64,000 nt of DNA from Lingula anatina (lineage: Eukaryota; Animalia; Brachiopoda): NCBI GenBank assembly GCA_051362555.1, contig CM120648.1, positions 18,596,587 to 18,660,586 on the forward strand, in the 5' to 3' direction. Position numbers and translations under genes: made by a program. The first letter of the stretch is position 1; each line of letters begins with the position of its first letter. The notes beneath the pieces are model-generated. The model had not been told where the DNA came from. It saw nothing but the letters and a program-made list of their open reading frames with translations, and did no database searches. Shown piece by piece: positions 2,336-57,875 of this stretch.

Positions 2336-2336
2336 C

Positions 2337-12200: not shown

Positions 12201-15184
12201 ATTGTTGTTTTTTATTTATTTATTTTATTTTATTTTATTTTATTTTATTTTATTTTATTTTATTATTATTATTTTTTTTTTTTGCATGTTTTGAGAACTT
12301 TTGTTTATTGCATTTTATAGAGCTTGTCAAGCACAAGACTGGTGGTGATGTCCAATATATATATATATATATTTTTTTTTTTTTTATTTTTTTATTTTTT
12401 TTTTTTTTTGGGGGGGGGGGTCCATACGAATGTGCTTACTCCAGCTGGTGGTACAATATCCAGAGGCGGCCATTATACTTTTTGTGCCTTGAAGACTGGG
12501 CGCTTGATAGCAATTATACTTGATCTTATTAGACGCATTTTCAATGTAATTTATTTATTTTTTTACAATATTTATACAATATCCCGAAGTTAAATTATAT
12601 GTTAAAATTTTGGAAAGAAATTCCTTTATCTTAGCCCTATTTTTGTTTTCTTTAAAGTTGAGTCATTTTCTGCTAGAATGGTGTTTGATATTATTCTTCT
12701 CTTTATTCTACAGCCGCTCCCCCTGATGACAGTGAATCACCTGCCTCTCCTGACAAAACAGCAGGTACATGTAAGTAGCGTACATGTACTAGTAAAACAA
12801 GATTCTCGTCTATTGCTCAGAATGTTCGAGATTTGTTCTAGCTTGTCGATTAAGTATGTGAGTTCCTGCATTCTTATTTTCATCAAACTGTATGAATAAT
12901 GTTACATTGAAATTGACTATACCTTACAATTTTAATTGATTTTACTGAATGTAAAAACATTCAGTGTTTATCACCCCGTTATGTTTTGAGCTTATCCACT
13001 TGTATTCATCAGAGAGGATACATTTTAAAGAAAAGTTTGTTTTTTTTCGCAAATTGCTGATAAACCTTCAGACGAAACAGACGAAAGCTTCTAGTGTATT
13101 TGATAACTGTTTCACAAAGTTAATTGACACTAAACACATTCAAATTTTGTCAATAATTACAATACTTTTTAACGCTAAAAAGTTTTATTTTAACCGCACT
13201 GTTTATTGTACAGTCCCTTTCAAAGGTGAAAGTGGATCTCATACCTCTGGGGAAGAAAACATGAGTAGTATAAGAATGTTGACGATATGTCGATGTATGA
13301 ACAGTCCCTGACAGATGAAATAAATTAGATTAAAAGCATGTCTATTAAGATTAAGGTCTAGTCTCTCTCTCTCTTTCTCAAACCCCCCCCCCCCTTGAAG
13401 AAGGCACACAAGCTGAAAACTCAATCAGGCGCTTGATACCAATTATACTTATTACATGCATTTTCAATCTAATTTATTTATTTTTATACAATATTTATAC
13501 AATATACTCAGTATAAATACGATGACTTGAATAAATGTGCACTCATTTTAATACATTACAGTATGCATTATGCTAAAATCAGTTAGTTTGGACATAGCTT
13601 ATTGTATTCATCGCAGTGGCAGAAAGGGACCATCTAGATGATATTGAGAAGGAGCTATTGGAAAAAATTGAGAAAATTGCCCGAGGAGAAGATGTGGAGC
13701 CAGAGAAACAGGTCACAATTTGGGACTTTGCAGGTCAGGATGTCTACTACACCACGCACCAAACGTTCCTCTCAGAACGGATCATCTACTTGTTGGTATT
13801 CCGACTTAACCAGGACCTCGATGATAAAATCCCTGTATACAGGGGAGAGAAGACGCTGAAAGGTATTGTTGAGCTTTATGTATATATCTTTACATGTATT
13901 AGAGCGGATTCTCAACGAATTAAGCCAGGCTTTACAAAGCCAGTGACCTAAAAATGGCGGACGTACATGAAAGAAAACCGCCTAATCTTTTAATAGTCTC
14001 TCCGCCTCCCCACACGTCGTCCCTGCGGGGTACAGTAATTAAATCTCGGCTCCGTTCGCCATGCGGAAGCTACCTGAGAAATATTAAGTGCGCATGCTCA
14101 TTGGTCTTGGGTCAGCTGATCAGCTAGTTCCCCTTCTTCAGTTGAAAGAACGCACGCGACGAAACAACAACGACATCAGCTATCACAAATTATCATCAAA
14201 CATGCCTGCCCAGCGGTCAGACAATTGGACAAGACAGGAAACTGTAGCCTTGCTGAGCATTTGGGGGGAGGCAAATGTTCAACATCAATTAGAAGACGGC
14301 AAACAAAGAAACATTCATGTATACCGGTGTCACGTGAAGAAACCGTCGTCGTGAATAAACCGTTCTGACGGATTATTCACGCGGGGGTAGCAGTCCGTGA
14401 ATAAACCGTCGTCGTGAATAAACCGTCGTGCCGCGCTGGTCATGCTGCTTACCTGGCCATTGTTCTCCGGTTTTATTACGCAATTTGGAGGCACTGTACA
14501 GTGCACATATATCCCCACATATATATATATATCACACCTTACCTGGTTATTGTTCTCAAGATACACCAATTAGGCCCTACTACAGCTGTTGTAAGAACCT
14601 AGATGAGATCGTTCAAATTTTGTCCTTTGTATTGTGGGTCAAGTTTATCTGTTAGTGTTAGGTATAAATAATTTTGTTTAGCTACTATTTAGCCTATGCA
14701 TTTTTTTTTTTTACTTTATGTTAATAATATTTTGGTCTGTCTTGCCGAAGTAGTTTATTGCGGTAACCGTAGACAGCAACCAGATCCTAAAACAATTAAG
14801 ACGAGAGAACTTTTAACCAACATACCTGGGTAGCCTTGTGAGTACACAGATTGTTGATATTTAAGAAATCCCTTAAAGAATTTTCAGTTGACTTCCATGC
14901 CAACTTCAGGAATATATTTGAAAAATAGAGATTTAAAGTTAAGAAGTAGGCCCTATTTATTGATACAGACAAAAATCGCAATTAAATGTAATTTAATGTT
15001 TTTTCCATTCAATTCTAGTGCCAAATGAGACTTGGATGAATTTTTGAGATCATGTATGGTATATGTCCACCAATTAAAACTAGTCATTTCGTGTCCATTA
15101 CTTGTCATGTGTTTTGTAATCATTGCAATATTAAATGAACTTCGCTGTCTTCATGTTTTACATATAAAGAACCAGTATTATCCT

Positions 15185-15216
<32 letters not shown>

Positions 15217-28601: not shown

Positions 28602-28663
<62 letters not shown>

Positions 28664-31600
28664 TAATTGGCGCTATTTTTTAGCAATGCTGAGGAGATAA
28701 CACTGATTAATATTCATCTTTGCAATAACCTCAAGGCTTTATATGTATTTTCAGAGTTTATTATGTTTTGGTTAAACTCAATCCATATGCACACTATTGG
28801 AAAATTGAGGGAAGAAGACAAAAATGCCATGCCATACGTCTTGATTATTGGAACTCATAAGGACATGTTATGCCCACAGGTGAAAACGCTTTTCTTATCA
28901 CAATTATTCAATTACTACCATACTTATTCTATGTATAATTTGTATCCCTTCAACCATATCACATTGCGATTCCTGATGAGTGACTTAATTATTTAGAACA
29001 TTTTCACTATGTGACTATTTGTGGATGGCATGATTTAATGTTGGGGGGAAAGGGTGTCCCTTGCCCACTGTACCCTATCCTAATTTTATAGGTTCATTGC
29101 AACATACCCCATTTTTCAACTTGAACGAAGTGGACTATATCATATACACATATATACATGTACATACACACTGGTAGATGTTTTCTTTCGCTGACACTTA
29201 AGCATTATTATATAGTAGTGAAAAACTACAAAAGAATCTTAACATCTTTTCATTCATAGGGCGAGGTTGAAAAGATTTTTGATAAACTCAAGAAGTGTCT
29301 CGATGACAAGCAGGTACTCAAGGACCACGTCTACCGATATTTTGCCATAAGCAACTTGGCCGAAGACGCTGAGGAGTTTGCTGAAATAAAAAGAGCGATC
29401 GAAGATTTGTGCGGTTATAGCAGCGACAGTGAGGCTACCGTTCAACATCTTCCAGTGAGTTGGATTAAATTGGAAATGAATTTGGCAAAGAAGAGTGAAG
29501 AAACACCCATCATAACTATTGAAAAATTGATGGAAATGGCGCAAAGGGTAGGACTCCCTGATGGAGAATTACAAGAAAAATTCATTCCTTACCATCACCG
29601 TCAAGGCGACATCCTACATTTTAAGATTGATGGACTGGAAAATGTCGTCATAATAGATCCACTTTGGTTAGCAGATGTGTTTTCTGCCATCATGACCCCG
29701 GCCAGCATTCACTCTGGATGCAGTCGCGGCCATTTCCTGAAAGATGAGCTTGAAAGAGGAGTCCTAAAAGAGGAGGTATTTGATGAGTATCTAAAAGAAT
29801 TCAAGATGGACGAAAAAAAGACTGAAATCATTCGACTTATGCTGCATTTTGACTTGATGTTAGAAATATCCCAATCAGTTGAAAACCCTCTGCCTGGACA
29901 TGGAAAAAGAAGATTCATCGTACCCAGTATGCTGGTATCAAATAACATTGCAAATGAGACAAATCCGCAGAAATATTTGCTAATCGCATTCCCTCATATT
30001 CTGTTTCCTACTGGGTTATTTCATCGTCTGACCATCCGTCTTCTAAGGAAGTATAAAGCTCAGCAATATAAAAATAACTTCCCAGTTGTCGGGTTTGACA
30101 GCGCCTCCTTCCGCCTGGCTGATAAACAGTCGGTGCTGCATCTCGCCGTTGAAAATAAGGCCATGAAGTTGTTTATAACTAACGCCACTGGACTCCCTCC
30201 AAAGACTCGCGTGTACTCAGAAGCAAGAAAAACAGTTGAAAACGAGTTGACAGTCCTTCGGGATACATACTGCCCCAGGATGCATTTTGGCTACAGCATC
30301 AGGTTAAAAAATGACGGACCCAATATTCCAATAAATGCACATGACGTCCAAACAGCCGATTCCATATGTGTGTATGTAGAGAACTCTGAAGCGTCGGTAG
30401 ATTTAAGGCCATATCGCGTTTGGTTTTCCGGTAAGCAGTTTGAAATATCACGTAGTGTTGTTGTGAATAGACATTAGGCCCTATGCTATTTTAACATAGA
30501 ACATGCATTCCATGTCAATTGGTTCACAGATCTTAAGATTTTAAAAGATCCCTGATTACACAACATGTAATGTCTGAAACCAGATACCATTAGAAAATTT
30601 AGGTTTGATTAGTTTTAATTTTCAAAGTAATTTATCTGGAAAAAAGTATTAAGGATATTTCTGTTTTGTACATATATTTTTGAAAATATTGATTTTTTAC
30701 ACAAACACTAATGACATACAATGTTAGTTATTTCTTATGAATACTCAATTGTATATGCAATAGACTAAAAAATGCTCAATTAGAAATTAATGGGAAAATT
30801 TATATTAATCTACCCTTCTTAAATGAACTAGGTACTTGTTTGTAACATTTTTATTAGAAACAAAAGGCAAGATATCGTATTCAGATTTTACTCAAACATG
30901 TTATGAATTAGCAACCTGTGATAACAAGTCATTAGAAACATGTCAGTGAGAAATAGAACCAAAATTAACAATCATTTCGGAATGACACTTGGATTTTGCA
31001 AGGAAAAGTACGGTGTATGATAGGACATAAAGTATTTTGATGGGGCCCTAGAGGCCAAGTACCAATATATAATATATATTAGGCCAATCTTACCATTTTA
31101 GCAGCCCCAGAGAATCAAGACCGTCGTGCAGCCAAGTGTCCTGAAAACGAGGCAAGTTGTGAGCTTTTAAATGCGTTTGTGTCTAAGTACTGCGCAGCAA
31201 ACACAGAACGTTATTATAACGTTACCATATCATATGTCCAAAAACATTTTGGTAACATTATAGTAACGTTCTGTGTTTGCTGACCATTATCCTCACTTGC
31301 ACAAGTTTTAGTAAGACCATGAAATTAAATGTACTTGTATATACACAAGCATAAGAAAAATTGGATACACTTAGGCATAAATGCGCACTTTTCACTCTGT
31401 TACACTTGCTATACGACCTCCGATACAGGTATTTCTAATGATAAATTTCACATAAAGACGGTGTATGTGTGCGTTTCAGTACAAGAACGATTCCGAACCG
31501 AGAGGTCGTGCACTCATTGTCAACAACAAGACATTTTCCGTGGACTGGCTTCGAGAACGTGATGGTACCGAGGTAGACGTTGTTGCCTTGAGGAAACTAT

Positions 31601-34600
31601 TCCGTTACCTCCATTATGAGACAGACGTTATCAGTAACCTGACTGCAAACGTGAGTTCATTAATAAGATCATGGTGTGTTTGTAATAAAACGAACATTGT
31701 AAAAGCCAAATGGCTTTTAGGTTTCAAAGACTAACATACTTTTTGGTGATATCTAAATATATTTATCAGTGATACAAAGATGATACAATTGATACTTGAA
31801 CCTTTTGGTTCAAAACAGGTGTTGTCAAACAAACTTTTGGGTCACATTTTATTATGTATATCTATTTCACTGCAATACATTTTTCTACTAAAATGAAGCT
31901 TTTCACTCGTTTCTGTTCATTGCATGTATTTGTATTTATATGAGAGACGTATGGTACACTGTATAGTTATACAACATTGGTCAAAAAGGTTGTCCCACCC
32001 CTATTTCCATTTACTTTTATTTACAAATGATCACCTTACAGCTGTAAATTGTTAGAAGTAGTGCTTTTTATGTACAGACACATCTACATATAGCCATTAT
32101 CTGCGTCTGTCATCGCCGTCGTCGCTGTCGCCGTGCACTTTTACCGATAACACGATAAGTGGAAAACTGTTTTGTCTTTTGGCTTGAAACTTACAGAACT
32201 GATGAATATTCATAATACGCAGGTCAAGTTCGAAAATCAGCATGATCGGGTCACTTATAGGGAATTTATGCTGTTTTTTCACTTTTTTCAGCATATATAC
32301 AGCACCGATAACACGATAAGTGGAAAACCATTTTACTTTTTGGCTTGAAACTTACAGATCTGATGAATATGATCTGATGAATATTTATAATACGCAGGTC
32401 AAGTTCGAAAATCAGCATGATCGGGCCATTTTTAGGGAAGTTATGCTATTTTTTTCACTTCTTTCAACATATATGCAACGCTAATAACACAATATAAGAA
32501 AAACAGATAGGCCAATTGTCATTATACTCACAGGAGTAGTCAAACTAACTAAAATGCAGGTTGAGTTCCAAAATCAGCATAATCGGGCCATTCTTTTAGA
32601 AGTTATGCTGTTTTTTCTTATTTCCTCAGATTCAATTGTTAGGCATGTTAACAGTCTCATTATTGAACTAATAGGATACGTAAAAGTGTTTGTTTGACAT
32701 TTCCTGCATCTTAATAACATTGTTAGTTGATTATGTAAAAATGATGGTAAACTTGTTATTGTGTATTATGTTATAAAGTGTCAAAAATGGAAATAAACAA
32801 ATATCATTGCAGTTTCTCAGATTCAATCATCTACTATATTCATTATCTCAGAATGGAGGAAATTGGACATTTAACACTGTTCTATTGATATTTTTCCCCA
32901 TCTCATCAATTTTCTTAGTTAATCATATACAAATGGTAGAAAACTGTTTATTGTTTTATGTTAAAAAAGTGTTTTAAAAATGGAAGTAAACCCATTGCAG
33001 AACAGTGCTGTCTTGTTTCAGCATATATGCAGCACCGATAACACGAAGAGTGGAAAACCATTTTACCTTTTCCCTTGAAACTTACAAAACTGATGAATAT
33101 TCATAATACGCAGGTCAAGTTTGAAAATCAGCATGATCGGGTCATTTTTAGGGAAGTTATGCTGTTTTGCACTTTTTTCACCATATATGCAACACTGATA
33201 ACATGATGAGTGAAAAATCATTTTACCTTTTGGCTTGAAACTTACAGAACTAATGAATATTCATATTACGCAGGTCAAGTTCGAAAATCAGCATGATCGG
33301 GTCATTTTTAGGGTAGTTATGCTGTTTTTTCACTTTTTTCAGCATATATGCAGCACCGATAACACGATAAATGGAAAACCATTTTACCTTTTGGTTTCAT
33401 ACTTACAGAACTGATGAATATTCATAATACGCAGGTCAAGTTTGAAAATCAGTATGATTGGGTCATTTTTAGGGAAGTTATGCTGTTTTTCACTTTTTTC
33501 AGCATATATGCAACACTGATAACATGATAAGTGGAAAACCATTTAACCTTTTGGTTTGAAACTTGCAAAACTAATGAATATTCATAATACTCAGGTCAAG
33601 TTTGAAAATCAGCATGATCGGGTCATTTTAAGGGAAGTAATGCTGTTTTTTCACTTTTTTCAGCATGTATGCAACACCTTTGTGCTATATGACGGTACTG
33701 TATGGATAGCAGTCTTTAAAATTGTCCCTTGGGTGATCACTAATTAAATTAAGGTCTATAAAGTCACTTGCCTACTCATTAATTTTCAATTGGCCATTAA
33801 ATGAGATTACATAAAACACTCCTTGAGATTTCCCTGTAAAGTCCCATAGGTTTAGCTCTCTTAACTGTGTCACAAAATTAGGATTTGGTGATAAATGTGC
33901 AGATAAATGGTGTTTAACATTGCAAATAATTTACAACAAAAAGAATGTGTTATGCCAACATGCTATAGATGCGTAACAGTGCTTTATTTTTCTCAAACTT
34001 GGTGGGGTTATTAATATCAAGTTAATACAGCTAGATTAAAAGTTTGAATAGCAGCTTTATTGGAATTTTTTACGTTTTATTTAATTTTTTTTAAATTATT
34101 TTTCAAACACTAGCATCTTCAAGATGTGATTTTATACTCCCATCCACCAGAAGTGCTGTGCATTTTCTGTATTTTTGTATATAATTGTTATTTCTTCAGA
34201 TTTAATTCTTAGCCATGTTAACAGTCTCATTATGGAACTAATAAGATATGTAAAAGTGTTGTTTTGACATTTTCTGCTTCTTAACAATATTGTTTGTTGA
34301 TTATATAAAAATGACGGTAAACCTGTTATAATATTGTGCATTATGTAATAAAGTATCATAAATGGAAAGGAACTCATCATTGCAGTTTGTCAGATTAAAT
34401 CATTCACTATGTTCAGCATCTGCAAATGGAGCAAATTTGACATTGAAAATTGTTCTATTGATATTTTTCCTATGTCAACAATTTTCCTAGTTGAACATTT
34501 AAAAATGACAGTTTATTGATCATTTTGTTTTAAAAAAGGTGTTGAAAATGGAAAGAAAATCATTTCAGTACAGTTATCTCTTGTTTACATTTTGGCATTT

Positions 34601-35067: not shown

Positions 35068-35143
<76 letters not shown>

Positions 35144-38100
35144 GAGTTTAAGCAATTTTTTTTTTTGTGTGTAATTTTCACTGTACCTCATTCAGGCATT
35201 TCCAAAGTTTAACTCTTATCAGCCTGACACCTTAGGGACTATTTCCAGACTCTATCACGCTAACTGTGGATCGATCTATCTCCATGGGAATTCTCGCTAA
35301 ATTGCAATCAATGTAAGTGGCTTAGTTGTCTGTCACGCCTACTGAAACTGGCATGCCAGAATCCTAAGACTCTCAAACTGAAAGCAATTTAGTGAGAAAC
35401 CCCTTGGAGTTGGATTGATCCTGTTAGATTGATCTAGGTATGGGAACTTGGTCTAATGCTTGATACACCTTTTACTTTCATCCTAATCCAATGTTTTGCA
35501 GAATAAGAATTTGATGTTGGCTATGCAGTTACAGTAAGCATAATACATTAGTTCATCAGAATTGACAGTATCCTATTTCCTGCGTTTTTATTTTCTGGTT
35601 TTTGTCTGTACATTTGACAGCTTTGCTGCCTTGTTATTACGGATACCGTGTCTAACTTGATTAATGGTTTTAAAAATACAAAATAGTGGTGAAAATATAC
35701 ATATTTTATACCATTTAGTAAAATTTATAAGAGGTACCCCCTAAAATCGACTGTTTCACTGTGACTTCTACAGATGTAAAGTAATGTCTATAAAATTGAA
35801 AAGACGCCATCAAATTTCACCAAATTCACACACAATAAGCATTAGGGCATGCTTGTTAAAGGTCACGTGCCTAACAGCGTGCACGTGTGTGTCTGCCGCG
35901 TACTGCAATTATCTCCTGTAGACGGCGCGACAAGCCTTCAACACGGGTTACAATTCTGCTTTGTGGGATATTGTCCGATTCTTCTTAAACAAGATGGGGG
36001 ATTTGGCCCAGGTTTTTATGGGGTTGGTTCTTTACATCTGTAGAAATCATAGTGAAACAGTCGAATTGAGGGGTATCTCTTATAAATTTAACTAAATGGT
36101 ATAAAATGTGTATATTTTCACCACTATTTTGTATTTTTTTTAACCATTAATCATGTTAGACACGGTATCCGTAATAAAAAGCACTATTTCTAACAGTTCA
36201 CAGCTGTGAGGTGATCATTTGTAAATAAAAGTACATGGAAATGGGGGTGGGACAACCTTTTTGACCCATGTTGTATACAGACAGACATGGCGTACAATCT
36301 ACATATATACCAGCATATGTCCGTCCTCGGTGGCTACTGCCTTTCACATTCTCTGTTTGCGTCAAGTATGAATTGATGCTGCCATTTTGCTTTACGCTGA
36401 CGTTGATAACCCAATTCCGTACGTACCACGTCTCTGCAGTCATTGCATGCTATTTCGTTTGAAGTACACTGTTTTTATGTCACTTCTTCTTTTATTTTAA
36501 TGTGTAAAGGAAATGAAGGAAGAAATAGAACAAGAAAGTCAAAGAGACGATCACAAGATCTACGATTCTTTCATCTTGTTTCTACTGAGCCATGGTACCG
36601 AGGGTGCTGTTTATGGAACGGATGGCGCTCCTTTACCCTTCAAATATATCAAAGGCATTTTGAATAACAGGAACTGTCTTGGCCTGTCGGGCAAACCGAA
36701 AATGATATTTATTCAGGCTTGCCAGGGAAGTAAGTTATGGAATGTATTACACAAGCTTGAATACCTGCGATGAAAATAACATGCAAAATTATTAAACAAA
36801 TGTATTGAGATATTAAACTGTATTAACAGTTTGTCTCCTTTAAATTATATTTAGCCACACGAAACGAATACGCTTAGTATTATGTAATTGTTTAATTAGT
36901 TAAAGGATTTGCATCATGCCATCAGAATGGCCTGAACGGAACATATTCTTCAGAAAACATGCCCAACTAATGATATCTTTATCCAAATACACAAATTAAA
37001 AGCTCATTTTGTAAATTTTTGGCTTTAAAAAACGTCCTATTTGCTCGGCCTGGGAGTTAATGAGCTACGTGGTCACGTGGTCCGATGACGACAATCGAGC
37101 CACTGGAGAACAGAGCGTGCTTAGCTGTCAAACTGAGCTGCATTGTCTACCTATAAGATGACTTCTCTGGCTTCTGATAAAGTTTATACTCATTCAAATC
37201 TCTTACCCGAGGGGTCTAAATCCTCGTGAAGCTGTGTAAAACCATTTCCCGTCTAGTCAATTCTTAAACAAGCATTTAATTATGGTTGTCCCAAGTTGTA
37301 TAAAACACTGCATTTGAATGAGTTAAAGGAAATGTTGATTATTGCATATGAGGTCCATGTTATTTGTGAAATTCAATTTATTTTGTTAAACCGCTGACAC
37401 TCCGTCTTGCATACTTTTATTAAACTGAGGTAAACAATGCCCGTTACCTTAACAAGTCCTATCTTAATCATCCATCTAACTGGAACTTCCTTTACCTCTT
37501 AATTAGAGGGTTAAATGGCATTCAATTTGTCTTGCTTGTATATAACGCACTCTCTATCTAAGCTTTACTCCAGTTATCTCAGGTAAAAATCTACCTGTGC
37601 GTTAGTTACAAAGAGCAGCTCACGTAGACCTGGGGGTACCAGATAAAATCTGAACACCAGGTTTATCGAGGAGCTAGAGAGAGAAACGAAGAATTTTTCC
37701 TGCACAACTTCATAGGAGTTTTAATACAGACTTGATCCAGCTTAGACCTCCAAACTAACAGGGTGACATGGGCAATTTTCACAAACAAATCATAAAACTA
37801 TATTTCAGTTAACCGCCTTTGAAATAAATATACCGTTCTGGGTAAATTAGAATAGTTATTAAATCGAAAGAATATTTTTGACTTAAATGATGATTTTATT
37901 ATTAATGGAAATTAAGCTACTATATGAGGTACATTTGCTGTGATTACGCTGTCCTTCATGTTTTGCGTAAGTCTACATTTTGCTGTATGTGCTTGTAATT
38001 TTTTTAAATATGTGCGTACAATTTTTACAGGTCTGGTTACCCCCCTGTTATGTGATGAGAGTATAAATTTGGCAATTAGTTCCTTAGCTTATTTAAATAG

Positions 38101-41100: not shown

Positions 41101-44100
41101 TAACATACAGCTTCAATAGGCAACGCAGTCTGTTTGGTAAATTTTTCTGGCAATTTAACAGTTTTTTGTGAAAATTTAATTTTTCACTTATTTGCATCTT
41201 TATTTTCTGTTCTTTGTCTGTACATTTGACAGCTTTGCTGCCTTGTTTTTCCATATTCACCCAGAGAGAAGGGACAGTGGGACACTCCTGGACGGACAAA
41301 CAGTTCAACAACCACAGCAAGCACCACCTGCAGCAAACCTTGGCGATGAGGTACCCGATGCGCCACACGAGATTCCAAAGGCATCCAATGATCCGACTAT
41401 GTCCGATTTTCTCGAGGTCCATGCGACTTCACCAGGTACTTTAACCGTGCTTCTTTGTATGCCATTTTACTTAGGCCTTACAAATGTGTTTTTTTGTCAG
41501 AAAAAAATCAAAATGATAAGGTGCACGTGGTGATGCTGGGATTATGGCATTTTGCCTCAGGAAGAAGATGGTGTGCATTTTGTGGTCTTTCAACATATTG
41601 TGGAGAACTGTATTGTACCACCCTGAGCTTCAGAGCTAACTTGACACTAACCTTTTCACTGTAGCCTATCTCCATCGTGTCAAGTAACCTCTGACCAGAT
41701 TCGAGTGCCCCCGCCGCCCGCCAATCAAATTTAAAGCCCGCACTCAATGACTCATTGAACGATCTAGCCAATGAACGCGAACGAGTCAAAGCGCGCTTTG
41801 TTCAAATCCGGACCAATCAAAGATAAGGCTGAATATCAGGGACTTGCCGTAACCTGTGGGCAGCACGCAAAATACATCATCCCTCAGTAGATAATGATGC
41901 AGGGCATCATACTGCTCTGGTTTCAATTCCGATATACTGCTCCATGCTTTCTTTGTGTACGGTTATGCACTCGGAACCACTCGGAACTACTCGGATGTCT
42001 CCGCACTCGACAATAACTATGTTGTTAGTATGGAGCTTGCGGAATCAGCCGAGGATTGCCGATTGACGATCAACCAATCAGCGTTTTCACCAAACTTTGG
42101 TGAAAAATTTTGAAACATGGATTCGATTGGCTTATATAAAATAGGTCAAACTATTTTCGTCAGAGGTTACTTGACACGATGGAGATAGGCTACAGTGAAA
42201 AGGTTAGTGTCAAGTTAGCTCTGAAGCTCAGGGTGTATTGTACGTGTATACTTAAAAATGCGCACTACATTACTGCACCAGTAAATACTGAAAATGGTGC
42301 ATGTATTTTATACAGTATCAAATAAAATATATGTGCCAAATTTAATTAAAATGTACGTACATTTTTATGTACAGACACAGATGTGTCTGTACATATAGCC
42401 ATCATCTGCGTCTGTCGTCGCCGTCGCCGTCGCCGTGCACTTTTACCGATAACACGATAAGTGGAAAACTGTTTCTTCTTTTGCTTTGAAACTTACAGAA
42501 CTGATGAATATTCATAATACGCAGTTCAAGTTCGAAAATCAGCATGATCGGGTCACTTTTAGGGAATTTATGCTGTTTTTTCACTTTTTTCAGCATATAT
42601 GCAGCACCGATAACACAATAAGTGGAAAACCATTTTACCTTTTGGCTTGAAACTTACAGAACTGATGAATATTGATAATACGCAGGTCAAGTTCGAAAAT
42701 CAGCATGATTGGGCCATTTTTAGGGAATTTATGCTGTTTTTTCACTTTTTTCAGCATTTATGCAGCACCGATAACACGATATTTGAAGAACTGTTTTACT
42801 TTTTGGCTTGAAACTTACAAAACTGATAAATATTCATAATTCGCAAGTCAAGTTCGAAAATCAGCATGATTGGGCCATTTTTAGGGAATTTATGCTGTTT
42901 TTTCACTTTTTTCAGCATTTATGCAACACCGATAACACGATATTTGAAGAACTGTTTTACCTTTTGGCTTGAAACTTACAAAACTGATAAATATTCATAA
43001 TTCGCAAGTCAAGTTCGAAAATCAGCATGATCGGGTCACTTTTAGGGAATTTATGCTGTTTTTTCACTTTTTTCAGCATATATGCAGCACCGATAACAAA
43101 ATAAGTGGAAAACTATCTTACCTTTTGGCTTGAAACTTATAGAACTGATGAATATTCATAATACGCAGGTCAAGTTCGAAAATCAGCATGATTGGGCCAT
43201 TTTTAGGGAATTTATGCTGTTTTTACACTTTTTTCAGCATCATTTATGCAACACCGATAACACGATATTTGAAGAACTGTTTTACCTTTTGGCTTGAAAC
43301 TTACAAAACTGATAAATATTCATAATTCGCAAGTCAAGTTCGAAAATCAGCATGATTGGGCCATTTTTAGGGAATTTATGCTGTTTTTTCACTTTTTTCA
43401 GCATTTATGCAACACCGATAACACGATATTTGAAGAACTGTTTTACCTTTTGGCTTGAAACTTACAAAACTGATAAATATTCATAATTCGCAAGTCAAGT
43501 TCGAAAATCAGCATGATCGGGTCACTTTTAGGGAATTTATGCTGTTTTTTCACTTTTTTCAGCATATATGCAGCACCGATAACAAAATAAGTGGAAAACT
43601 ATCTTACCTTTTGGCTTGAAACTTATAGAACTGATGAATATTCATAATACGCAGGTCAAGTTCGAAAATCGGCATGATTGGGCCATTTTTAGGGAATTTA
43701 TGCTGTTTTTACACTTTTTTCAGCATCATTTATGCAACACCGATAACACGATATTTGAAGAACTGTTTTACCTTTTGGCTTGAAACTTACAAAACTGATA
43801 AATATTCATAATTCGCAAGTCAAGTTCGAAAATCAGCATGATTGGGCCATTTATATGGAAGTTATGTTGTTTTTTCACTTTTTTTCAGCATATATGCAAC
43901 ACCTATAACACATTTTAAGGAAAATTGATTGGCCAATTGTCTTGAAATTCACAGTAGTGATCAGTGTTACTGAAATACAGATTAAGTTTTGAAAATAAGC
44001 TTGATCAGTTAAAGTTTGGTGAAGTTATACCTTTTTTTTGTATATAAGTTTTTTTCCTCAAATTTAATTCTCAGGCATGTTAACAGTCTCATTTTTTAAA

Positions 44101-47100: not shown

Positions 47101-50100
47101 GTTGCACTGTGCCTGACCGGAAAAAAAACCCTTAAAATGAGTAGTGATTCAGTGTTCCAATGATGCCTGCGACGGCTAGAAACGTGACCCGTATTATTGG
47201 CCTTTGGGAGATCATTTCAGGTCGGTTCACTGTAACACTATCGGCAAATATACTTTACAAATAGTTCCTCGATCTACGCGATTTATGAAATATGCTTTTC
47301 CGCACTCTCAGTGAGACTAAGTACTGTTATATTAACAAAATAAAATAAACAGTACCGTTGCATCTACGAGTAAATAATACGTTAAGGCTTCAGAATTTTC
47401 TGTTTCAGAATACGTATCTTGGCGACACACGGGAAAGGGAACATGGTTTGTTCAATCCATTGTCGATACATTTTATCGTGAAGCACACAAATATGACGTT
47501 TTACAAATGTTGGTGAATGTAAGTACTGAAATAACATGAACTACATTATTTTGCATTGAAAGTGTGTTAAATTCATTAGAACACCAATCAAATATAAAAC
47601 ATAGCTGCCAGAAGAAGTGACATGTCGTAAGAGGTGACTTATGTAAATACAGTCCAACATGCACAGACTTTTTAAGAACCAGCGAAATGCTCTTCTGTTT
47701 ATTTTGACAGTTTAATCAGAACTGTTCACTTCATGTAATATTTTATTTCACCAGGTCAATCACGCGATCTCTCAAAAGCAAACAACAATGGGCAACAAAC
47801 AGGCACCAGAGATAGTTACCAGCTTACGCAAGAAAGTTTTCTTCAACATAACTCCAGGTAAGCAAAAAGAATCACATCTTCCCTAGGTGTATTCGGCCAA
47901 ATAATAAAGACTTGAGATCAAAAGTAAGCAAAAACAACGAACCTGGAACGTGTTAAGGTACAAACAATGCTGCCAGTCCTGCTGAAGATCTCATCCTTTT
48001 ATCAAATGTCTCAAATCTCCCACCCAGTTGCAGACCCCACCTACAACATTGTTTCCCAACTTCAATAAATCATTCCCAACTAAAGCTGGAACTTCAAGGT
48101 TATGATATTCATAAGGTTATTTTTCTCATCAATGTTATTTCTATGTGTTTCCACCTAAATTGCACCACAACTCCCAGCATTCACACACCTCACAGTCATT
48201 TATCAGTACTTACTCCTCCTGAAGTGATTTGGGACTACATTGAATCAGGTTATCCTTTGGGCGGATTGCTGGCACAATTTAGTCTCCTTCTTACAGATTT
48301 CAAATATTCAATGTTACATGTTATCCCTAAATCTGATCTTCACAAAACTCGTGTAATTTACGATTTTTTTTTATCCCAACCTGGTCTCGGTTGATTCTAA
48401 CATTCCAAGAGAGTTCTCTGTGGCACAGTACGACTTCATTGATGCTGTTATCACACATGTCCAACATTTTGTTCGTGGTGCTCTTTTAGGTATATCTTAT
48501 ATTCAAGATGTTTTCCACATTTTACCGATTATCAACTGCGTCCATCCCTTAAAGGCCCAGTGGGTCACCTGTGAGCCACACGTTTGACACGTCCCCACCC
48601 ACACCACACAAAATGAATCCACTTCATTTTGCAATTTCCTATTCCTTATGTACTAGTTTATCCTTGTTGACCAATTAGAAACTAGATCATTATCCTTCAC
48701 TTACTCAAATATGTCTGCCTCCATAAGAAGGAGTAAATGCTATTGTCTAGTGGGTTTTTATGTCTGTATTGTCATCTCAAGGTTAATAATAATTTCAGTC
48801 TTCTGGCTTTTCATTCTAAATACAATAGTCTTAAACCACACAGAAATGTTTTATACAGTTGTTAGCTACGCTTCCAGGTTTAAATTTATTTTTATGTACA
48901 GACACAGATGTGTCTGTACATATTGCCATCACCTGCGTCTGTCGTCGCCGTCGTCGCCGTCGCCGTCGCCGATGCCGATGCCGTCGCCGATGCCGGCGCC
49001 GTGCACTTTCAGCGTTAACACGATAAGTGGAATAAAGTTTTACTTTTTGGCTTTATATTTACAGAGCTGATGAATATTCATAAAACCCAGGTCAAGTTCG
49101 AAAATCAGCATGATCGAGCCATTATTGTAGAAGTTATGCTGTTTTTTCACTTTTCAGCATATATACAACACTGTTAACACATTTCAAGGAAAACCGATAG
49201 GCCTGTTGTCATGAAACTCACAGGAGCAATCAATCTTACTAAAACGCAGGTCAAGTTCGAAAATCGGCACGATCGGGCCACTATTTTAGTAGTTATGCTG
49301 TTTTTTCACTTTTTAGCATATATGCAACACTGTAAACACAATATAAGAAAAACAGATAGGGCAATTGTCATTTAAACTCACAGGAGTGGTCAATCTTACT
49401 AAAATGCAGGTTGAGTTTGAAAATTAGCATAATTGGGCCATTATTTTAGAAGTTATGCTGTTTTTTCACATTTCCTTAGATTCAGTTCTAAGGCATGTTA
49501 ACAGTTTCATTATTTAATTAATAAGAAATGTAAAAGTGTTTGTTTGACATTTTCTGCATCTTTACAACATTGTTAGTTGATTTCGTAAATATGATGGTAA
49601 ACTTGTTATGGTGTATTGTGTAATAAAGTGTCAAAAATGGAATTAAACTCATATCATTGCAGTTTGTCAGATTCAATTATTCAGTATGTTTAGAAACTCA
49701 GAATGGAAGAAATTGGACATTTAACACTATTCTATTAATATTTTTCCCATCTCATCAATTTTCTTAGTTGATCATATATAAATGGCAGTAAATTGTTAAT
49801 TTTGTTATATGTTAAAAAATTGTTAAAAATGGAAAAAAAACACATTTCAGGACAGTGCTGTCTTGTCTACATTTTGGCATATTCAAGGTGTGACTTTGAA
49901 GTTCCTTGGGCCTGAAGACCTTTGCTAGGAACATTTTCTGAATATCCATGATACTAATATTTTATTATTAAAAATTGATGGTAATTATCCTGTTAAACAT
50001 TATGTAATATTGCATCAAAATTTGAAGAAACCCCTATTTTGGACAATGCTCCCATGATGACCATTTAAGGAAAACCATGTCACTTACTGTTCTCAAACTT

Positions 50101-53100: not shown

Positions 53101-53429
53101 TTATTCTTCGTCATTAATAAATGACAATTTTCAGTCATATGGACTTTATGCTATTTACCTTTGAGCAAAAAGCTGAGCTTTGTTGTGTTGGTGTGATTAT
53201 TTGGCTACATGAATAGAATATTTCATCCACAGAGGTGTCTCTTGGCTGTAAGATAATATGAAATAATATTCAAATAAATCTGAACTGAAAAAAAAAAAAT
53301 TAATTAATTCTATAAAACGCAATATTTTGAAGAAACATGTTGTAAAGAACAATTTTCTTGCTGCTGTCATATCACCTGGTAATTGTTTGTTTTCTAGGTG
53401 AAGAAGAGTCAGTCCAAGACCAAAACTAA
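9209..53429 (+). CDS. Multi-exon Roc-COR-caspase fusion gene, 5'-incomplete. Exons: 9209-9259, 12714-12764, (13214-13264), 13617-13862, 28755-28879, 29260-30430, 31102-31151, 31480-31650, 36510-36729, 41265-41435, 47409-47518, 47755-47857, 53398-53429
   Basis: From 13617 on, all exons have AG acceptors and GT donors (one GC) with matching phases (1,0,1,0,0,1,1,0,1), giving one open frame of about 800 codons. Motifs seen: Roc WDFAGQ, GTHKD and FAISN; COR LPVSWIKLE, IIDPLWL, FIVPSML and FPTGLFHRL; caspase PRGRALIVNN, LSHG, QACQG, SWRHTGKGTWFV and SLRKKVFF. Confidence 0.88.
9376..10520 (+). mobile_element. Distal fragment of the long HINE variant
   Basis: Similar to about 44793-45785 (gggcatgaagcccagtggt..., ccctgtaaactccc..., ggtcctgaaactgt). 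Confidence 0.7.
11296..12035. repeat. ~146-151-bp tandem repeat, about 5 copies (second satellite family, probably Helentron-borne)
   Basis: Unit starts (gcagagata-like) at 11296, 11445, 11596, 11742, 11888 and 12023. Contains aataggaagtcata and tgacctttgaccta. Confidence 0.85.
12714..12764 (+). CDS. 51-nt mini-exon copy 2 (APPDDSESPASPDKTA)
   Basis: Two substitutions versus 9209-9259. Flanking intron is also duplicated (about 9100-9377 vs 12610-12890). ctacag acceptor and cag|gtacat donor. Confidence 0.7.
13214..13264 (+). CDS. Candidate third, diverged 51-nt mini-exon (VPFKGESGSHTSGEENM)
   Basis: gtacag acceptor, same length and phase, and codon-level similarity (ggtgaaagtggatctcatacctct vs gatgacagtgaatcacctgcctct). 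The a|gtagta donor is weak. Confidence 0.4.
   Translation, partial: SLSKVKVDLIPLGKKT
13617..13862 (+). CDS. Roc GTPase exon (G3/switch II)
   Basis: [30 protein letters not shown] is the ROCO Roc signature. Bounded by tcgcag| and g|gtattg. Confidence 0.92.
13901..14101 (+). repeat. Left TIR of Harbinger element (201 bp)
   Basis: agagcggattctcaacg...gtgcgcatgctcat is the reverse complement of 28167-28367 with 1 mismatch. Confidence 0.95.
14328..16619. mobile_element. Non-autonomous Ginger1-like DNA transposon
   Basis: TGT...ACA ends, ~40-bp imperfect TIRs and subterminal cgtgaataaaccgt repeats. The 4-bp CCGG TSD (14324-14327, 16620-16623) is the reported Ginger1 target. Excision restores the Myb frame. 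Confidence 0.8.
17184..17431 (+). repeat. 5' LTR (248 bp, TG...TA)
   Basis: Identical by eye to 22191-22438. Confidence 0.93.
17433..17443 (+). other. Primer-binding site TGGCGACGAGG, complementary to the 3' end of tRNA-Ser(GCU)
   Basis: Lies 1 nt after the 5' LTR. tRNA identity is recalled from the animal tRNA-Ser(GCU) 3' end ...CCUCGUCGCCA. Confidence 0.8.
18035..20086 (+). CDS. gag: 683-aa Gag-like protein with N-terminal ComEA-type helix-hairpin-helix domain, capsid-like region and CCHC zinc knuckle
   Basis: LPINRATYDELVTLPGIGPKRAERIIYARE (HhH). FDGNSDDWESL...WSEDE...CLEGEAL...QSQNETLNQW (retrotransposon capsid-like). CFFCKRKDHFKRNC (CX2CX4HX4C). Confidence 0.9.
   Translation: MASASRLPINRATYDELVTLPGIGPKRAERIIYAREQGIPVTRSNILEICGSNTGSNKIKNFSFGGTHSSELGSEVNMGDLDPSVLSTQKTHYTTSKVTSYIQHEGRAAAERYRAEFEKILKLGEKIQHQEQISRSKNIKNAANFSPSTYSKLKSCSKSHFHSAIDPKSFTSQPATLASEHDIFALPIERLRANNKDKKVTSSVHAKSSGRVMNPDTVTSFPNGKDSSRHFAPSVHKGDVNCDLYQFHVPKPGRRQRHVEQNFADTVQQNHEYRSSSIGKHYTRPRISPPVFCDEPLIYERDNIEKEYFRLPKPEKVGPKSKKDRVDPSDLPKQLSFDGNSDDWESLRKRYESYRQIKEWSEDECLDYLLWCLEGEALALYNSHLRANKNVSYTSIMKEMDLVFGIKKHPDSARLAFLTAVQSQNETLNQWLCRVLLLVRDAYPDKSESFRTKETISKFCQDCIDQDAGRYTSLKHPASISDAITHMVDYQHVCKPTNSQKETRKIREKIQICSLDLTARENQQSPSENVEKLVESIIEKRVSQQPKLSTIQFNSRADLEKTVEHLVRKSTPKTSSVCFFCKRKDHFKRNCQKYKEFLKRKITEKELAKQKRADNAESFKLKVRASSTCSNTPSQMHGTEKPHLVEQSLQQNQRRGVEWESDPSIDQNPRLSGNFSSIKWSRV
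20087..21540 (+). pseudogene. Decayed pol remnant (aspartic protease and start of RT region only)
   Basis: In frame after the gag TAG: ISGKVDMGAQISVMS (D-T/S-G protease motif mutated to DMG). At about 21302: YVFTRDNFDLGRS*...LKSRMR. At about 21508: APVL. No RT core, RNase H or integrase is recognisable. Confidence 0.75.
21599..22077 (+). other. Array of six predicted perfect three-way-junction motifs GACT-ATCAC..GTGAT-GT..AC-AGTC in the LTR element's 3' untranslated region
   Basis: Cores at 21601-21655, 21674-21723, 21729-21779, 21794-21843, 21929-21987 and 22028-22074, with compensatory stem changes. Confidence 0.8.
22177..22190 (+). other. Polypurine tract
   Basis: aaaagtggggggaa immediately before the 3' LTR. 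Confidence 0.85.
22191..22438 (+). repeat. 3' LTR (248 bp)
   Basis: Identical to the 5' LTR and followed by TSD tcac. Confidence 0.93.
25278..28142 (-). CDS. Harbinger DDE transposase, ~438 aa, apparently intact. Exons 28142-27862, 27049-26909, 26503-26167, 25835-25278
   Basis: GT-AG introns with consistent phases. Motifs WMENFRMKRATF, GAIDGTHVPI, YYNRKSFYSI, WPGQVHDARV, LGDPAYP and IEGCFGRCKGKW. Confidence 0.92.
28167..28367 (-). repeat. Right TIR of Harbinger element
   Basis: Reverse complement of 13901-14101. Confidence 0.95.
28604..28664. repeat. (ATT)n microsatellite
   Basis: Directly visible. Confidence 0.95.
28755..28879 (+). CDS. Roc exon (G4 motif)
   Basis: EFIMFWLNSIH...PYVLIIGTHKD. 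Bounded by ttttcag| and cag|gtgaaa. Confidence 0.9.
29260..30430 (+). CDS. End of Roc (G5) plus COR domain exon
   Basis: 390-codon open exon: YFAISN, HLPVSWIKLE, YHHRQGDILHF, VIIDPLWLADVF, LMLHFDL, FIVPSML, FPTGLFHRL. Bounded by catag| and g|gtaagc. Confidence 0.9.
31102..31151 (+). CDS. COR-caspase linker exon (APENQDRRAAKCPENE) with NAGNAG acceptor and GC donor
   Basis: This is the exon I found that bridges phase 1 to phase 0. The donor reads AG|GCAAGT. Confidence 0.7.
31480..31650 (+). CDS. Caspase p20 N-terminal exon
   Basis: YKNDSEPRGRALIVNNKTF...RDGTEVDVVALRKLFRYLHY...NLTA. Confidence 0.92.
32065..35635 (+). mobile_element. Helentron/HINE-like non-autonomous element with 161-bp tandem units
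   Basis: T-run start, subterminal tgtacagac/gtctgtaca inverted repeat, (GTCGCC)n microsatellite, 161-bp units and a 3' hairpin cagc-ttt-gctg followed by cttgtt. Confidence 0.8.
35071..35140. repeat. (AT)n microsatellite
   Basis: Directly visible. Confidence 0.95.
36510..36729 (+). CDS. Caspase catalytic exon (His and Cys)
   Basis: DSFILFLLSHGTEGAVYGTDG...LSGKPKMIFIQACQG. Bounded by aag| and a|gtaagt. Confidence 0.95.
39377..41250 (+). mobile_element. Helentron/HINE-like element ending in the splice-acceptor tract of a caspase exon
   Basis: 5' hairpin atgtacagacac-agat-gtgtctgtacat, three 161-bp units and the standard 3' end. Confidence 0.85.
41265..41435 (+). CDS. Caspase inter-subunit linker and start of p10
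   Basis: KRRDSG...GDEVPDA...PTMSDFLEVHATSP matches the caspase P..xDFL..xST.P motif. Phase 1 on both sides. Confidence 0.88.
41619..42235 (-). mobile_element. 617-bp MITE with perfect 77-bp TIRs, 8-bp TSD and a RecQ-like helicase relic (AcademH-like)
   Basis: TIRs at 41619-41695 and 42159-42235. TSD tattgtac. The - strand at 41926-41825 reads LKPEQYDALHHYLLRDDVFCVLPTGYGKSLIF (RecQ-like motif I). Confidence 0.8.
42362..46508 (+). mobile_element. Long Helentron/HINE-like element with nine 161-164-bp units
   Basis: Same termini as the other copies. Array spans about 42445-43900. Confidence 0.85.
45925..46298 (+). mobile_element. tRNA-derived SINE with V-domain-like core
   Basis: A-box-like tggccttgtggttagag and B-box-like gggtccaaaccc. 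V-SINE-like core cataccagtc...ggtacctgctg...gcttggcactcagcactaagggg. aataaa and (att)n tail. 35-bp flanking duplication. Confidence 0.75.
47409..47518 (+). CDS. Caspase p10 exon
   Basis: EYVSWRHTGKGTWFVQSIVDTF...DVLQMLVN. Bounded by tttcag| and |gtaagt. Confidence 0.93.
47755..47857 (+). CDS. Caspase p10 C-terminal exon
   Basis: VNHAISQKQTTMGNKQAPEIVTSLRKKVFF. Confidence 0.92.
48553..51920. mobile_element. TTAA-inserted element (Kolobok-like AGG...CCT ends) splitting the RT relic
   Basis: ttaa-aggcccag at the left and ttgggcc-ttaa at the right, with RT homology resuming across it. The TIR match is only ~7 bp and one T is missing at the right junction. Confidence 0.5.
48889..51706 (+). mobile_element. 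Helentron/HINE-like element (rearranged, second head at about 50308)
   Basis: Same 5' hairpin, microsatellite and 3' end as the other copies. Confidence 0.8.
52328..52460 (-). pseudogene. Small Tc1 transposase relic
   Basis: LPWSSKSPYLNHMDNKW resembles WPxxSPDLNPIENxW. Confidence 0.5.
53398..53429 (+). CDS. Candidate terminal coding exon (GEEESVQDQN*)
   Basis: ttgttttctag acceptor, phase 1 matching the donor at 47858. The alternative is read-through of exon 47755 to a stop about 9 codons later. Confidence 0.5.

Positions 53430-57780: not shown

Positions 57781-57875
<95 letters not shown>

What the first reader, a model, noticed from the sequence alone, without database searches (positions are those of the whole stretch)
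13617..53429. ROCO GTPase (Roc-COR) fused directly to a complete caspase: candidate GTP-switched, self-dimerising death/immune protease
Seen: ten exons from 13617 splice in one open frame from Roc (WDFAGQ, THKD, AISN) through COR and a ~16-aa linker into a caspase. The caspase keeps the catalytic His (SHG) and Cys (QACQG, as in caspase-8/10), both S1-pocket Arg positions (RDGT, SWR), and a linker with an Asp site (EVPD-A). Established: Roc-COR modules (LRRK2, DAPK1, MFHAS1, bacterial Rocos) undergo nucleotide-regulated dimerisation, and initiator caspases activate by induced dimerisation via CARD/DED prodomains. The familiar animal ROCOs carry kinase or death domains rather than a caspase. Inference: here COR takes the prodomain position, so GTP/GDP cycling could directly gate caspase activation in a one-protein sensor-effector. 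I do not know of a characterised animal protein with this architecture, but I cannot search to confirm novelty.
Basis: partly seen in the sequence, partly recalled or inferred. Interest (0 to 1): 0.9.

Follow-up and report, generated by a model that had tools for sequence, protein, structure and literature searches.

The report
Lingula GTPase switch fused to caspase
A lamp-shell (Lingula-type brachiopod) gene joins an LRRK2-type GTPase switch directly to a complete cell-death protease, likely behind a beta-propeller sensor; such fusions are already noted in an annelid and in bacteria, and this one would likely switch the protease on by pairing two copies, which is untested.

Summary
The ten exons, plus three more upstream (8765-12764), give one open 884-residue frame. 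It matches two halves of a split Lingula anatina RefSeq gene at 95-96%. The 5' half supplies the P-loop and an NHL beta-propeller not found in the window, so the likely protein is NHL-Roc-COR-caspase, about 1275 residues. RNA shows three joints, but the COR-to-linker joint was not in the truncated list.

The architecture is not new. A ROC-prodomain caspase is published for Owenia, caspase is a listed effector of bacterial Roc-COR proteins, and a bacterial Roc-COR-CHAT protease cleaves gasdermin.

New here: the fusion recurs in Lingula, Owenia, Branchiostoma and Exaiptasia and is not one clade (AU p=2.7e-5). Lingula paralogues swap caspase for HEPN through a crossover inside the COR exon (42/42 versus 9/9 sites), and the same caspase cassette also sits behind a CARD. 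Best mechanism (0.45): GTP-bound monomer off, GDP-state COR dimer on, untested. The scan noted related Roc-COR-effector fusions on other DNA, none on this sequence. New variant of a known kind; interest 0.55.

The parts
8765..8920 (+). Coding exon upstream of the finding; start of the long insert between Roc switch I and switch II. Phase-1 acceptor, so further exons (P-loop, NHL) likely lie upstream of the window
   Evidence: tblastn and sequence; 95% match to P0008 residues 392-600 over this and the next four exons
9209..9259 (+). 51-nt phase 1-1 exon, low-complexity Pro/Asp/Ser repeat unit in the Roc insert (copy 1)
   Evidence: duplicated with its flanks (87.6% over 274 nt); predicted disordered in the P0008 model
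12714..12764 (+). 51-nt phase 1-1 repeat exon (copy 2)
   Evidence: both copies present in P0008, one in the HEPN-paralogue model P0041
13617..13862 (+). Roc exon with G3/switch II (WDFAGQ at 13721)
   Evidence: Pfam Roc E=1.9e-8; RNA loose ends at 28753 carry this exon's 3' end (45 and 121 reads in X4, X6)
28755..28879 (+). Roc exon with G4 (THKD at 28853)
   Evidence: RNA joint 28877>29258, GT..AG, 39 and 57 reads
29260..30430 (+). Large exon: Roc G5 (AISN at 29344), COR-A and COR-B; ends in phase 1
   Evidence: Pfam COR-A E=5.4e-22; model of P0006 residues 1-320 matches CtRoco COR 3dpt_B, Z 19.4, rmsd 3.4, 273 aligned
29710..30148 (+). Interval holding the inferred crossover between paralogues: ancestry switches from the HEPN paralogue to the caspase paralogue
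   Evidence: 42 of 42 sites of one pattern at or before residue 359, 9 of 9 of the other at or after residue 506
31102..31151 (+). 50-nt linker exon (phase 1 to 0), GC donor; first exon of the caspase cassette
   Evidence: RNA joint 31149>31478 with 35 and 31 reads (may include paralogue reads); no in-frame ATG in or just before it
31480..31650 (+). Caspase p20 start with S1 Arg (RDGT at 31558)
   Evidence: Pfam C14 E=2.6e-9
36510..36729 (+). Caspase p20 with catalytic His (SHG at 36588) and Cys (QACQG at 36714)
   Evidence: Pfam C14 E=3.8e-18; alignment to caspase-3
41265..41435 (+). Inter-subunit linker with candidate Asp sites at Cys+12 (TLLD-G) and Cys+34 (EVPD-A), then p10 start
   Evidence: low-confidence loop in the model; cleavage is inferred
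47409..47518 (+). Caspase p10 with S1 Arg (SWR at 47417)
   Evidence: Pfam C14 E=8e-6
47755..47857 (+). p10 end with the dimer-interface strand; phase-1 donor. Read-through gives an alternative end (stop at 47884-47886, AATAAA at 47903)
   Evidence: paralogue P0044 uses the read-through end
53398..53429 (+). Last coding exon and stop
   Evidence: same C-terminus in P0006

Best explanation
This spliced gene encodes a Roc-COR GTPase module fused in frame to a complete caspase, likely preceded by an NHL beta-propeller, and it would likely work as a one-chain sensor-switch-protease in which COR pairing replaces CARD pairing. Predicted cycle: in the resting cell the GTP-loaded protein is a monomer and the caspase is silent. 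A ligand on the propeller, or clustering, would promote GTP hydrolysis. The GDP-state COR-B domains would then dimerise and bring the two caspase domains, 24 residues away, together. The caspase would self-cleave in its linker (EVPD-A, possibly TLLD-G) and cut death or immune substrates. Shown: frame, domains, motifs, folds, sense-strand expression, paralogue mosaicism. Inferred: that the NHL and P-loop exons belong to this copy, dimerisation, polarity, the ligand, the substrates and an immune role.
For: Fusion: open frame; same joints in two RefSeq models on different contigs, XP_013381226.2 and XP_013405061.1; no AATAAA/ATTAAA in the intron after COR and no start codon for a free caspase in the linker or first caspase exon; sense-strand RNA on the exons in 2 of 4 runs, with intron depth 1.6-1.8 against 18-43 on the distal COR exon. 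5' half: P0008 is 199 of 209 identical, shares both repeat exons and 37 of the first 38 intron read-through residues, has G1 and G2 and a TRIM2/3-like propeller. Prodomain slot: the cassette follows a CARD in XP_013403374.2 (about 43 differences in 275 residues, counted by eye). Related ROCOs carry Death, DED, TIR, HEPN, OTU or a weak RHIM match after COR. Recurrence: 14 of 190 proteins held have both modules, 10 with the caspase C-terminal, and they are not one clade. Polarity: CtRoco is dimeric empty or with GDP and monomeric with GTP (PMC5714945 abstract); it dimerises through C-terminal COR, and GTP inhibits DAPK1 (PMC6337361 passages). That forced dimerisation activates initiator caspases is recalled knowledge.
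Against: The COR-to-linker joint (30430>31102) and the 31650>36510 joint are not among the 15 joints shown; 166 were hidden. The first caspase exons are covered more deeply than distal COR (X4 54-66 versus 18-23; X6 64-74 versus 32-43), which fits paralogue reads but also a second caspase transcript. Two of four runs show almost no exon signal. No P-loop was found in the window, and 4 of the 5 closest paralogue models (P0001-P0004) lack one; 4 of the 10 C-terminal fusions lack one in their model. The interface strand reads EIVTS against caspase-3 CIVSM, so the caspase might dimerise on its own. Some fusions put the caspase N-terminal or use linkers of 65-72 residues, so tight COR-to-caspase geometry is not conserved. 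No nucleotide control of any Roc-COR protease was found in print; the Runella paper has no mention of GTP.
Confidence: 0.45

Rival explanations
1. Roc-COR acts as a scaffold or localisation module. The caspase is a ready-made dimer and is switched on by linker cleavage, conformational release or higher-order assembly on a ligand or membrane, not by a monomer-to-dimer step.
For: The interface strand resembles caspase-3; linker length varies from about 20 to 72 residues and the caspase can be N-terminal; in DAPK1 Roc is reported to act on the kinase through a conformational change (PMC6337361 passages).
Against: The same cassette works behind a CARD, and the post-COR slot in relatives holds proximity domains such as Death, DED and TIR.
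Confidence: 0.25
2. The fusion is a by-product of exon shuffling in a fast-recombining gene family; the two halves travel together without regulatory coupling, or the copy is short-lived.
For: The cassette has phase-1 ends on both sides; paralogues are mosaics; caspase fragments lie beside a HEPN-type paralogue (P0040, P0041); the introns hold young transposons.
Against: No stop or frameshift in 884 codons; at least two near-identical copies in RefSeq plus three older Lingula fusions (P0002, P0007, P0047); catalytic Cys motif kept in 9 of 10 C-terminal fusions; the same order recurs in annelid, cephalochordate and cnidarian records.
Confidence: 0.13
3. It is a regulated but non-lethal processing enzyme or a bait: it cuts a signalling partner, or is tripped by a pathogen factor that targets GTPases or NHL proteins, rather than killing the cell.
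For: Krasovec et al. suggest caspase-Y, the group of the CARD paralogue, acts in immunity rather than apoptosis (PMC11463336 passage); expression is restricted among runs.
Against: No substrate evidence either way; the sibling effectors (HEPN, Death, DED, RHIM-like) are death- or conflict-type domains.
Confidence: 0.12
4. Gene-model artefact: a COR gene ending near the 30475-30477 stop and a separate caspase gene with another first exon.
For: The decisive joint was not displayed in RNA; caspase exons are deeper than distal COR; RefSeq itself once fused and later split neighbouring caspase and ROCO models (P0041 versus P0040 and P0001).
Against: Canonical donor at 30430, no poly(A) signal in the intron, no start codon for a free caspase; RNA depth falls to intron level after the exon; two RefSeq models share the joint.
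Confidence: 0.05

Closest known systems
Owenia fusiformis ROC-prodomain caspase CAH1787638.1 (Krasovec et al. 2024, PMC11463336)
   Same: Animal caspase with ROC in the prodomain position; placed in the caspase-Y group, to which the Lingula CARD protein sharing this cassette was also assigned.
   Different: Described as a single annelid oddity, with ROC proposed to bind kinases; COR is not mentioned in the main text (0 hits). The Lingula counterpart XP_013381226.2 was listed there with no prodomain. No NHL, no dimerisation model, no test.
Prokaryotic LRR-AP-GTPase(Roc)-COR counter-invader proteins (Kaur et al. 2021, PMC8195603)
   Same: Repeat sensor, Roc-COR switch and a variable C-terminal effector that can be a caspase; several paralogues per genome with different effectors (section 15).
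   Different: Bacterial, LRR sensor, predicted only. Here an animal gene with introns, an NHL propeller, an Asp-type caspase and effector exchange by crossover within the COR exon plus exon shuffling.
Runella Roc-COR-CHAT protease (Johnson et al., bioRxiv 2021.06.07.447441)
   Same: Roc-COR fused to a caspase-like His-Cys protease; shown to cleave its gasdermin and cause cell death.
   Different: CHAT family, cuts after Leu, bacterial; the role of the GTPase is not mentioned in the main text.
DAPK1 and other animal Roc-COR-Death/DED/TIR proteins, including the Trichoplax ROCO expansion (PMC4104024) and Aplysia ROCO-TIR proteins (PMC9334734)
   Same: Animal Roc-COR followed by a death-pathway domain; Civiero et al. 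propose Roc-COR as a nucleotide-dependent dimerisation device.
   Different: They carry adaptor or kinase domains; here the protease is on the same chain, with no kinase, LRR or death-fold domain.
CARD/DED initiator caspases (caspase-2, -8, -9, caspase-Y)
   Same: Complete p20-linker-p10 with catalytic and S1 residues; a long N-terminal region.
   Different: No death-fold prodomain, so no separate adaptor platform would be needed; interface strand is caspase-3-like.

Membership tests
ROCO GTPases | Roc G3, G4, G5 motifs | tested here: met
   WDFAGQ, GTHKD, FAISN in the window product; Pfam Roc above cut-off
ROCO GTPases | Roc G1 (P-loop) and G2 | tested here: inconclusive
   Not found in window 1-13700; present in the 95%-identical 5' RefSeq half P0008, whose link to this copy is inferred
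ROCO GTPases | COR directly after Roc, with both subdomains | tested here: met
   Pfam COR-A; model matches CtRoco COR over residues 1-320, Z 19.4
ROCO GTPases | GTP binding and hydrolysis; nucleotide-dependent dimerisation through COR | not testable with these tools
ROCO groups 1-3 (LRR-Roc-COR; plus kinase; DAPK1 with kinase and death domain) | LRR, kinase or death domain beside Roc-COR | tested here: not met
   Pfam on both RefSeq halves gives NHL, Roc, COR-A, Peptidase_C14 and no LRR, kinase or Death; groups as defined in PMC6337361
Caspases (Peptidase C14A) | His-Cys dyad in SHG and QACxG | tested here: met
   His701, Cys744 of the window product
Caspases (Peptidase C14A) | S1 pocket Arg/Gln/Arg for Asp | tested here: met
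   RDGT, QAC and SWR align with caspase-3; their S1 role is established knowledge
Caspases (Peptidase C14A) | Complete p20 + p10 fold | tested here: met
   Pfam C14 positions 1-233 on P0006; Z 36.0, rmsd 2.4, 231 aligned to 4jj7_A
Caspases (Peptidase C14A) | Asp-specific proteolysis | not testable with these tools
   Needs an assay
CARD/DED initiator caspases | Death-fold prodomain | tested here: not met
   No CARD, DED or Death hit; COR holds the slot
CARD/DED initiator caspases | Monomeric zymogen activated by induced dimerisation | not testable with these tools
   Interface strand is caspase-3-like, which leaves this open
AP-GTPase-COR counter-invader proteins (Kaur 2021) | N-terminal LRR sensor in a prokaryote | tested here: not met
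   Animal gene; NHL propeller instead of LRR. It works like one but is not a member
AP-GTPase-COR counter-invader proteins (Kaur 2021) | Paralogues in one genome with different effectors after COR | tested here: met
   L. anatina paralogues end in caspase, HEPN_DZIP3 or a weak RHIM match

The most novel reading that the evidence does not exclude
Marine invertebrates have an unrecognised class of NLR-like death receptors built on a Roc-COR GTPase switch instead of a STAND ATPase: variable sensors in front (NHL, Bcl-2, ankyrin, SH2, EH), exchangeable effectors behind (caspase, HEPN, Death, DED, TIR, OTU, RHIM), with COR-B inherited together with its effector as a pairing code. The caspase members are adaptor-free 'apoptosomes in one chain', turned on by GTP hydrolysis, in lineages reported to lack APAF-1.
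Probability: 0.3. Interest if true: 0.82.

Novelty: new variant of a known kind. Interest (0 to 1): 0.55.

Why it matters
If COR pairing gates the caspase, this protein is a natural reporter for a question still debated for LRRK2-family proteins: which nucleotide state and which oligomer is the active output. A fluorogenic caspase assay would read it directly. It would also give brachiopods, annelids and molluscs, reported to lack APAF-1 (PMC11463336), a candidate adaptor-free route to caspase activation, and would tie animal ROCO expansions to the bacterial Roc-COR effector systems, one of which activates a gasdermin. The reciprocal mosaic shows how such genes exchange effectors. The domain pairing itself is already in print, which caps the surprise.

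Tried and rejected
No genome is held for this window, so the upstream exons could not be read directly. A permissive tblastn and motif scan of 1-13700 found no P-loop or NHL exon. The run search listed no indexed RNA holder; raw-read runs with the same species label were laid instead, over 28500-37500 only, so joints 3' of 36729 and the three upstream exons were not examined, and intron repeats crowded the joint table. A search with the caspase region at E<=1e-40 returned only P0006 (1 of 2577 candidates), so the CARD paralogue could be compared only by eye. A fold search on the Roc part of the P0008 model was not obtained; Foldseek hits were filled by the propeller. Literature: 'Peptidase_C14 + Roc + COR' gave 0 papers; the other searches gave no paper on NHL-Roc-COR-caspase or on the Lingula family. 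I recall a 2018 review of Lingula immune genes in a subscription journal that did not appear in these searches and could mention it. Rejected: a single origin of all Roc-COR-caspases (the rejection is partly driven by near-identical Lingula HEPN paralogues). Rejected: a P-loop-less start at Met 8794 as the main reading, because the exon has a phase-1 acceptor that P0008 uses; it is not excluded. P0041 (caspase piece before Roc) is treated as a probable mis-joined old model and not used as evidence.
Full report
1. The observation. All acceptors are AG. All donors are GT except the one after the 50-nt linker exon, which is GC. The last exon is 53398-53429 with the stop at 53427-53429. Every motif is where stated. 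Single exons pass Pfam cut-offs for Roc, COR-A and Peptidase_C14 (5 of the 8 gene exons scanned gave hits). Three more coding exons lie upstream: 8765-8920 and two copies of a 51-nt repeat exon at 9209 and 12714. The 13-exon product has 884 residues and no internal stop. No P-loop or other upstream exon was found in 1-13700.

2. What it is. The five proteins found with the COR exon are all Lingula anatina RefSeq models (5 of 3102 candidates). Two RefSeq models cover the window product. XP_013381226.2 (P0006) matches residues 282-884 at 579 of 603 with no gap, including the COR-linker-caspase joints and the last exon. XP_023930482.1 (P0008) matches residues 1-209 at 199 of 209. P0008 lies on a short contig and runs off into the same intron as the window has (37 of the first 38 read-through residues identical), and it has both repeat exons, while the HEPN paralogue model has one. 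P0008 adds an NHL beta-propeller close to TRIM2/TRIM3 and Roc G1 and G2. The model shows a Ras-like strand-helix order with a disordered insert. So the likely full protein is NHL-Roc-COR-caspase of about 1275 residues. This join is inferred: P0008 could belong to a very recent duplicate, since a second near-identical COR-caspase exists (XP_013405061.1). The P0006 model has mean pLDDT 87.8. Its residues 1-320 match the CtRoco COR domain (3dpt_B, Z 19.4, rmsd 3.4, 273 aligned) and residues 333-591 match caspases (4jj7_A, Z 36.0, rmsd 2.4, 231 aligned).

3. RNA. Four raw-read runs with the same species label were laid on 28500-37500 at 90% likeness. Two (X4, X6) cover the exons on the sense strand; two (X1, X7) show almost nothing there. 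Seen: the 13862>28755 joint as loose ends (45 and 121 reads), 28879>29260 (39 and 57 reads), and the GC-AG joint 31151>31480 (35 and 31 reads). Not displayed: 30430>31102 and 31650>36510; only 15 joints were shown and 166 were hidden, most shown rows being intron repeats. Depth on distal COR is 18-23 (X4) and 32-43 (X6), falls to 1.6-1.8 in the next intron, and is 54-66 and 64-74 on the first caspase exons. The excess fits paralogues that share the cassette, but a second caspase transcript is not excluded. The intron has no AATAAA or ATTAAA, and no in-frame ATG precedes the caspase. I put the fusion at about 95%.

4. How common. Of 190 proteins held after the searches, 14 carry both modules. 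Ten have the caspase after COR: five Lingula (P0002, P0006, P0007, P0044, P0047), Owenia CAH1786849.1 (Bcl-2-Roc-COR-caspase), Branchiostoma floridae XP_035660786.1, Exaiptasia KXJ13106.1 and two unnamed ENA proteins. Four have it in front: Potamilus, Antedon, Branchiostoma and one probably mis-joined Lingula model. Six of the ten have a P-loop in the model and nine have the catalytic Cys motif. Only the best 150 of 9305 hits were listed, so this is a lower bound. Other ROCOs in the set end in Death, DED, TIR, HEPN_DZIP3 or OTU and begin with NHL, ankyrin, SH2, EH or Neuralized. In a Roc-COR tree of 52 rows the nine C-terminal-caspase rows need 6 changes, at least 4 forced by starred branches. 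An AU test on 26 rows, leaving out the long-branch Branchiostoma row, rejects one clade (p=2.7e-5); near-identical Lingula HEPN paralogues drive part of this. In a caspase tree of 51 rows (13 ROCO rows and the best 38 of 75 others) the label needs 8 changes, at least 5 forced. The Lingula and Owenia caspases share one starred set of 12 rows, so a single caspase lineage within these spiralians is not excluded; the Branchiostoma, Exaiptasia and Antedon ones lie elsewhere.

5. How effectors are exchanged. The window is 96% and 93% identical to the HEPN paralogue P0001 in Roc and COR-A but 60% in distal COR-B, where the caspase paralogue P0002 is closer (71%) and the two HEPN paralogues pair (71%). 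Of 52 informative sites among window, P0001, P0002 and P0003, 42 join window with P0001 and all lie at or before residue 359; 9 join window with P0002 and all lie at or after residue 506; 1 supports the third pattern (p=3.3e-10; 0 of 300 permutations). The simplest reading is a crossover inside the COR exon (about 29710-30148) that moves COR-B together with its effector; convergence tied to effector type is a less likely alternative. Separately, the caspase cassette starts and ends in phase 1, and in the Krasovec supplement the same cassette, from the linker exon on, follows a CARD in XP_013403374.2 (about 43 differences in 275 residues by my eye count, not computed). The window's caspase is only 41% identical to that of P0002. 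So COR and CARD have occupied the same slot in front of one cassette.

6. Mechanism. CtRoco is mainly dimeric when empty or GDP-bound and monomeric with GTP (PMC5714945, abstract). It dimerises through the C-terminal COR part, and GTP inhibits DAPK1 while hydrolysis reactivates it (PMC6337361, passages). Initiator caspases are activated by forced pairing (recalled). Hence the best reading: GTP monomer off; a sensed ligand or clustering promotes hydrolysis; COR-B dimer brings the caspases together across a 24-residue gap; self-cleavage at EVPD-A (Cys+34) or TLLD-G (Cys+12, the caspase-3 position). None of these steps is shown. Against it: the interface strand looks like that of caspase-3, linkers in relatives reach 65-72 residues, and some fusions are reversed. 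I give it 0.45, a scaffold or allosteric role 0.25, an uncoupled shuffling product 0.13, non-lethal processing 0.12, artefact 0.05.

7. What is known. Krasovec et al. 2024 (PMC11463336; passages, section 11 whole, supplement hits, part 13 of 40; the domain figure S1 was not seen) report an Owenia caspase with a ROC prodomain, CAH1787638.1, a different accession from the one found here, and list XP_013381226.2 with no prodomain. Kaur et al. 2021 (PMC8195603; passages, section 15 whole; source data not read) predict bacterial LRR-AP-GTPase-COR proteins with at least 24 effectors including caspase. Johnson et al. (bioRxiv 2021.06.07.447441; passages; supplements not seen) show that the Runella protease, labelled Roc-COR-CHAT in a legend, cleaves its gasdermin; GTP is not mentioned. 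Civiero et al. 2014 (PMC4104024; passages) list Trichoplax ROCOs with CARD and death domains and propose a dimerisation device. Also seen as passages: PMC9334734, PMC7159879, bioRxiv 2026.04.20.719644; PMC11378527 only as a listing. Ten searches found no paper on NHL-Roc-COR-caspase, on the spread of the fusion across animals or on the COR crossover; subscription journals are largely missing from the library. Earlier scan notes describe related Roc-COR-effector fusions on other DNA and none for this sequence.

8. Verdict. Real, expressed in some samples, and very likely one protein. It is a ROCO protein (P-loop inferred) and a caspase, but not a member of the three classic ROCO groups or of the death-fold initiator caspases. 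The pairing is in print; the NHL version, the recurrence and the exchange mechanism are not, as far as searched. New variant of a known kind; interest 0.55.

Noticed in passing
window 13899-28369: A young PIF/Harbinger-type element fills most of the intron between the G3 and G4 exons: 203-bp terminal inverted repeats at 99.5% identity (13899-14101, 28167-28369), with Myb/SANT pieces on + and DDE_Tnp_4 pieces on -.
   Followed up: partly
window 17184-22439: Nested inside it, an LTR-like element with two identical 249-bp direct repeats and a 693-codon Gag-like frame (18005-20083; PNMA, zinc knuckle) that carries an N-terminal helix-hairpin-helix motif; no long pol frame was seen between the repeats.
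   Followed up: partly
window 47755-47903: Possible alternative 3' end: read-through of the ninth exon reaches a stop at 47884-47886 with AATAAA at 47903; paralogue XP_013405061.1 uses the read-through end.
   Followed up: partly
P0048 (Owenia CAH1786849.1): Bcl-2-Roc-COR-caspase in one chain (Pfam Bcl-2 E=5.3e-23); Lingula P0047 is its neighbour in the Roc-COR tree and has a helical N-terminus without a Pfam hit. A Bcl-2 fold, a GTPase switch and a caspase together seem worth their own study.
   Followed up: partly
P0004 (L. anatina XP_013405835.1), residues 666-681: A paralogue ends in a weak RHIM match (E=0.0072, below the Pfam cut-off) in the effector slot.
   Followed up: no
P0192 (Exaiptasia XP_020902336.1): HEPN_DZIP3 at the front and caspase at the end of one ROCO, with a P-loop 347 residues before G3 that may belong to another NTPase domain.
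   Followed up: no
P0054 and P0074: Roc-COR fusions whose caspase domain lacks a recognisable catalytic Cys motif in my pattern scan; possible pseudo-caspases.
   Followed up: no
window 53494-54640 and 56900-58200: Broken Tc1/mariner-like and Harbinger-like relics just downstream of the stop.
   Followed up: no
window 42445-43919: A tandem array of about 161-bp units in the intron after the linker exon of the caspase; the same unit recurs at 32143-33679 and draws many RNA reads there.
   Followed up: no
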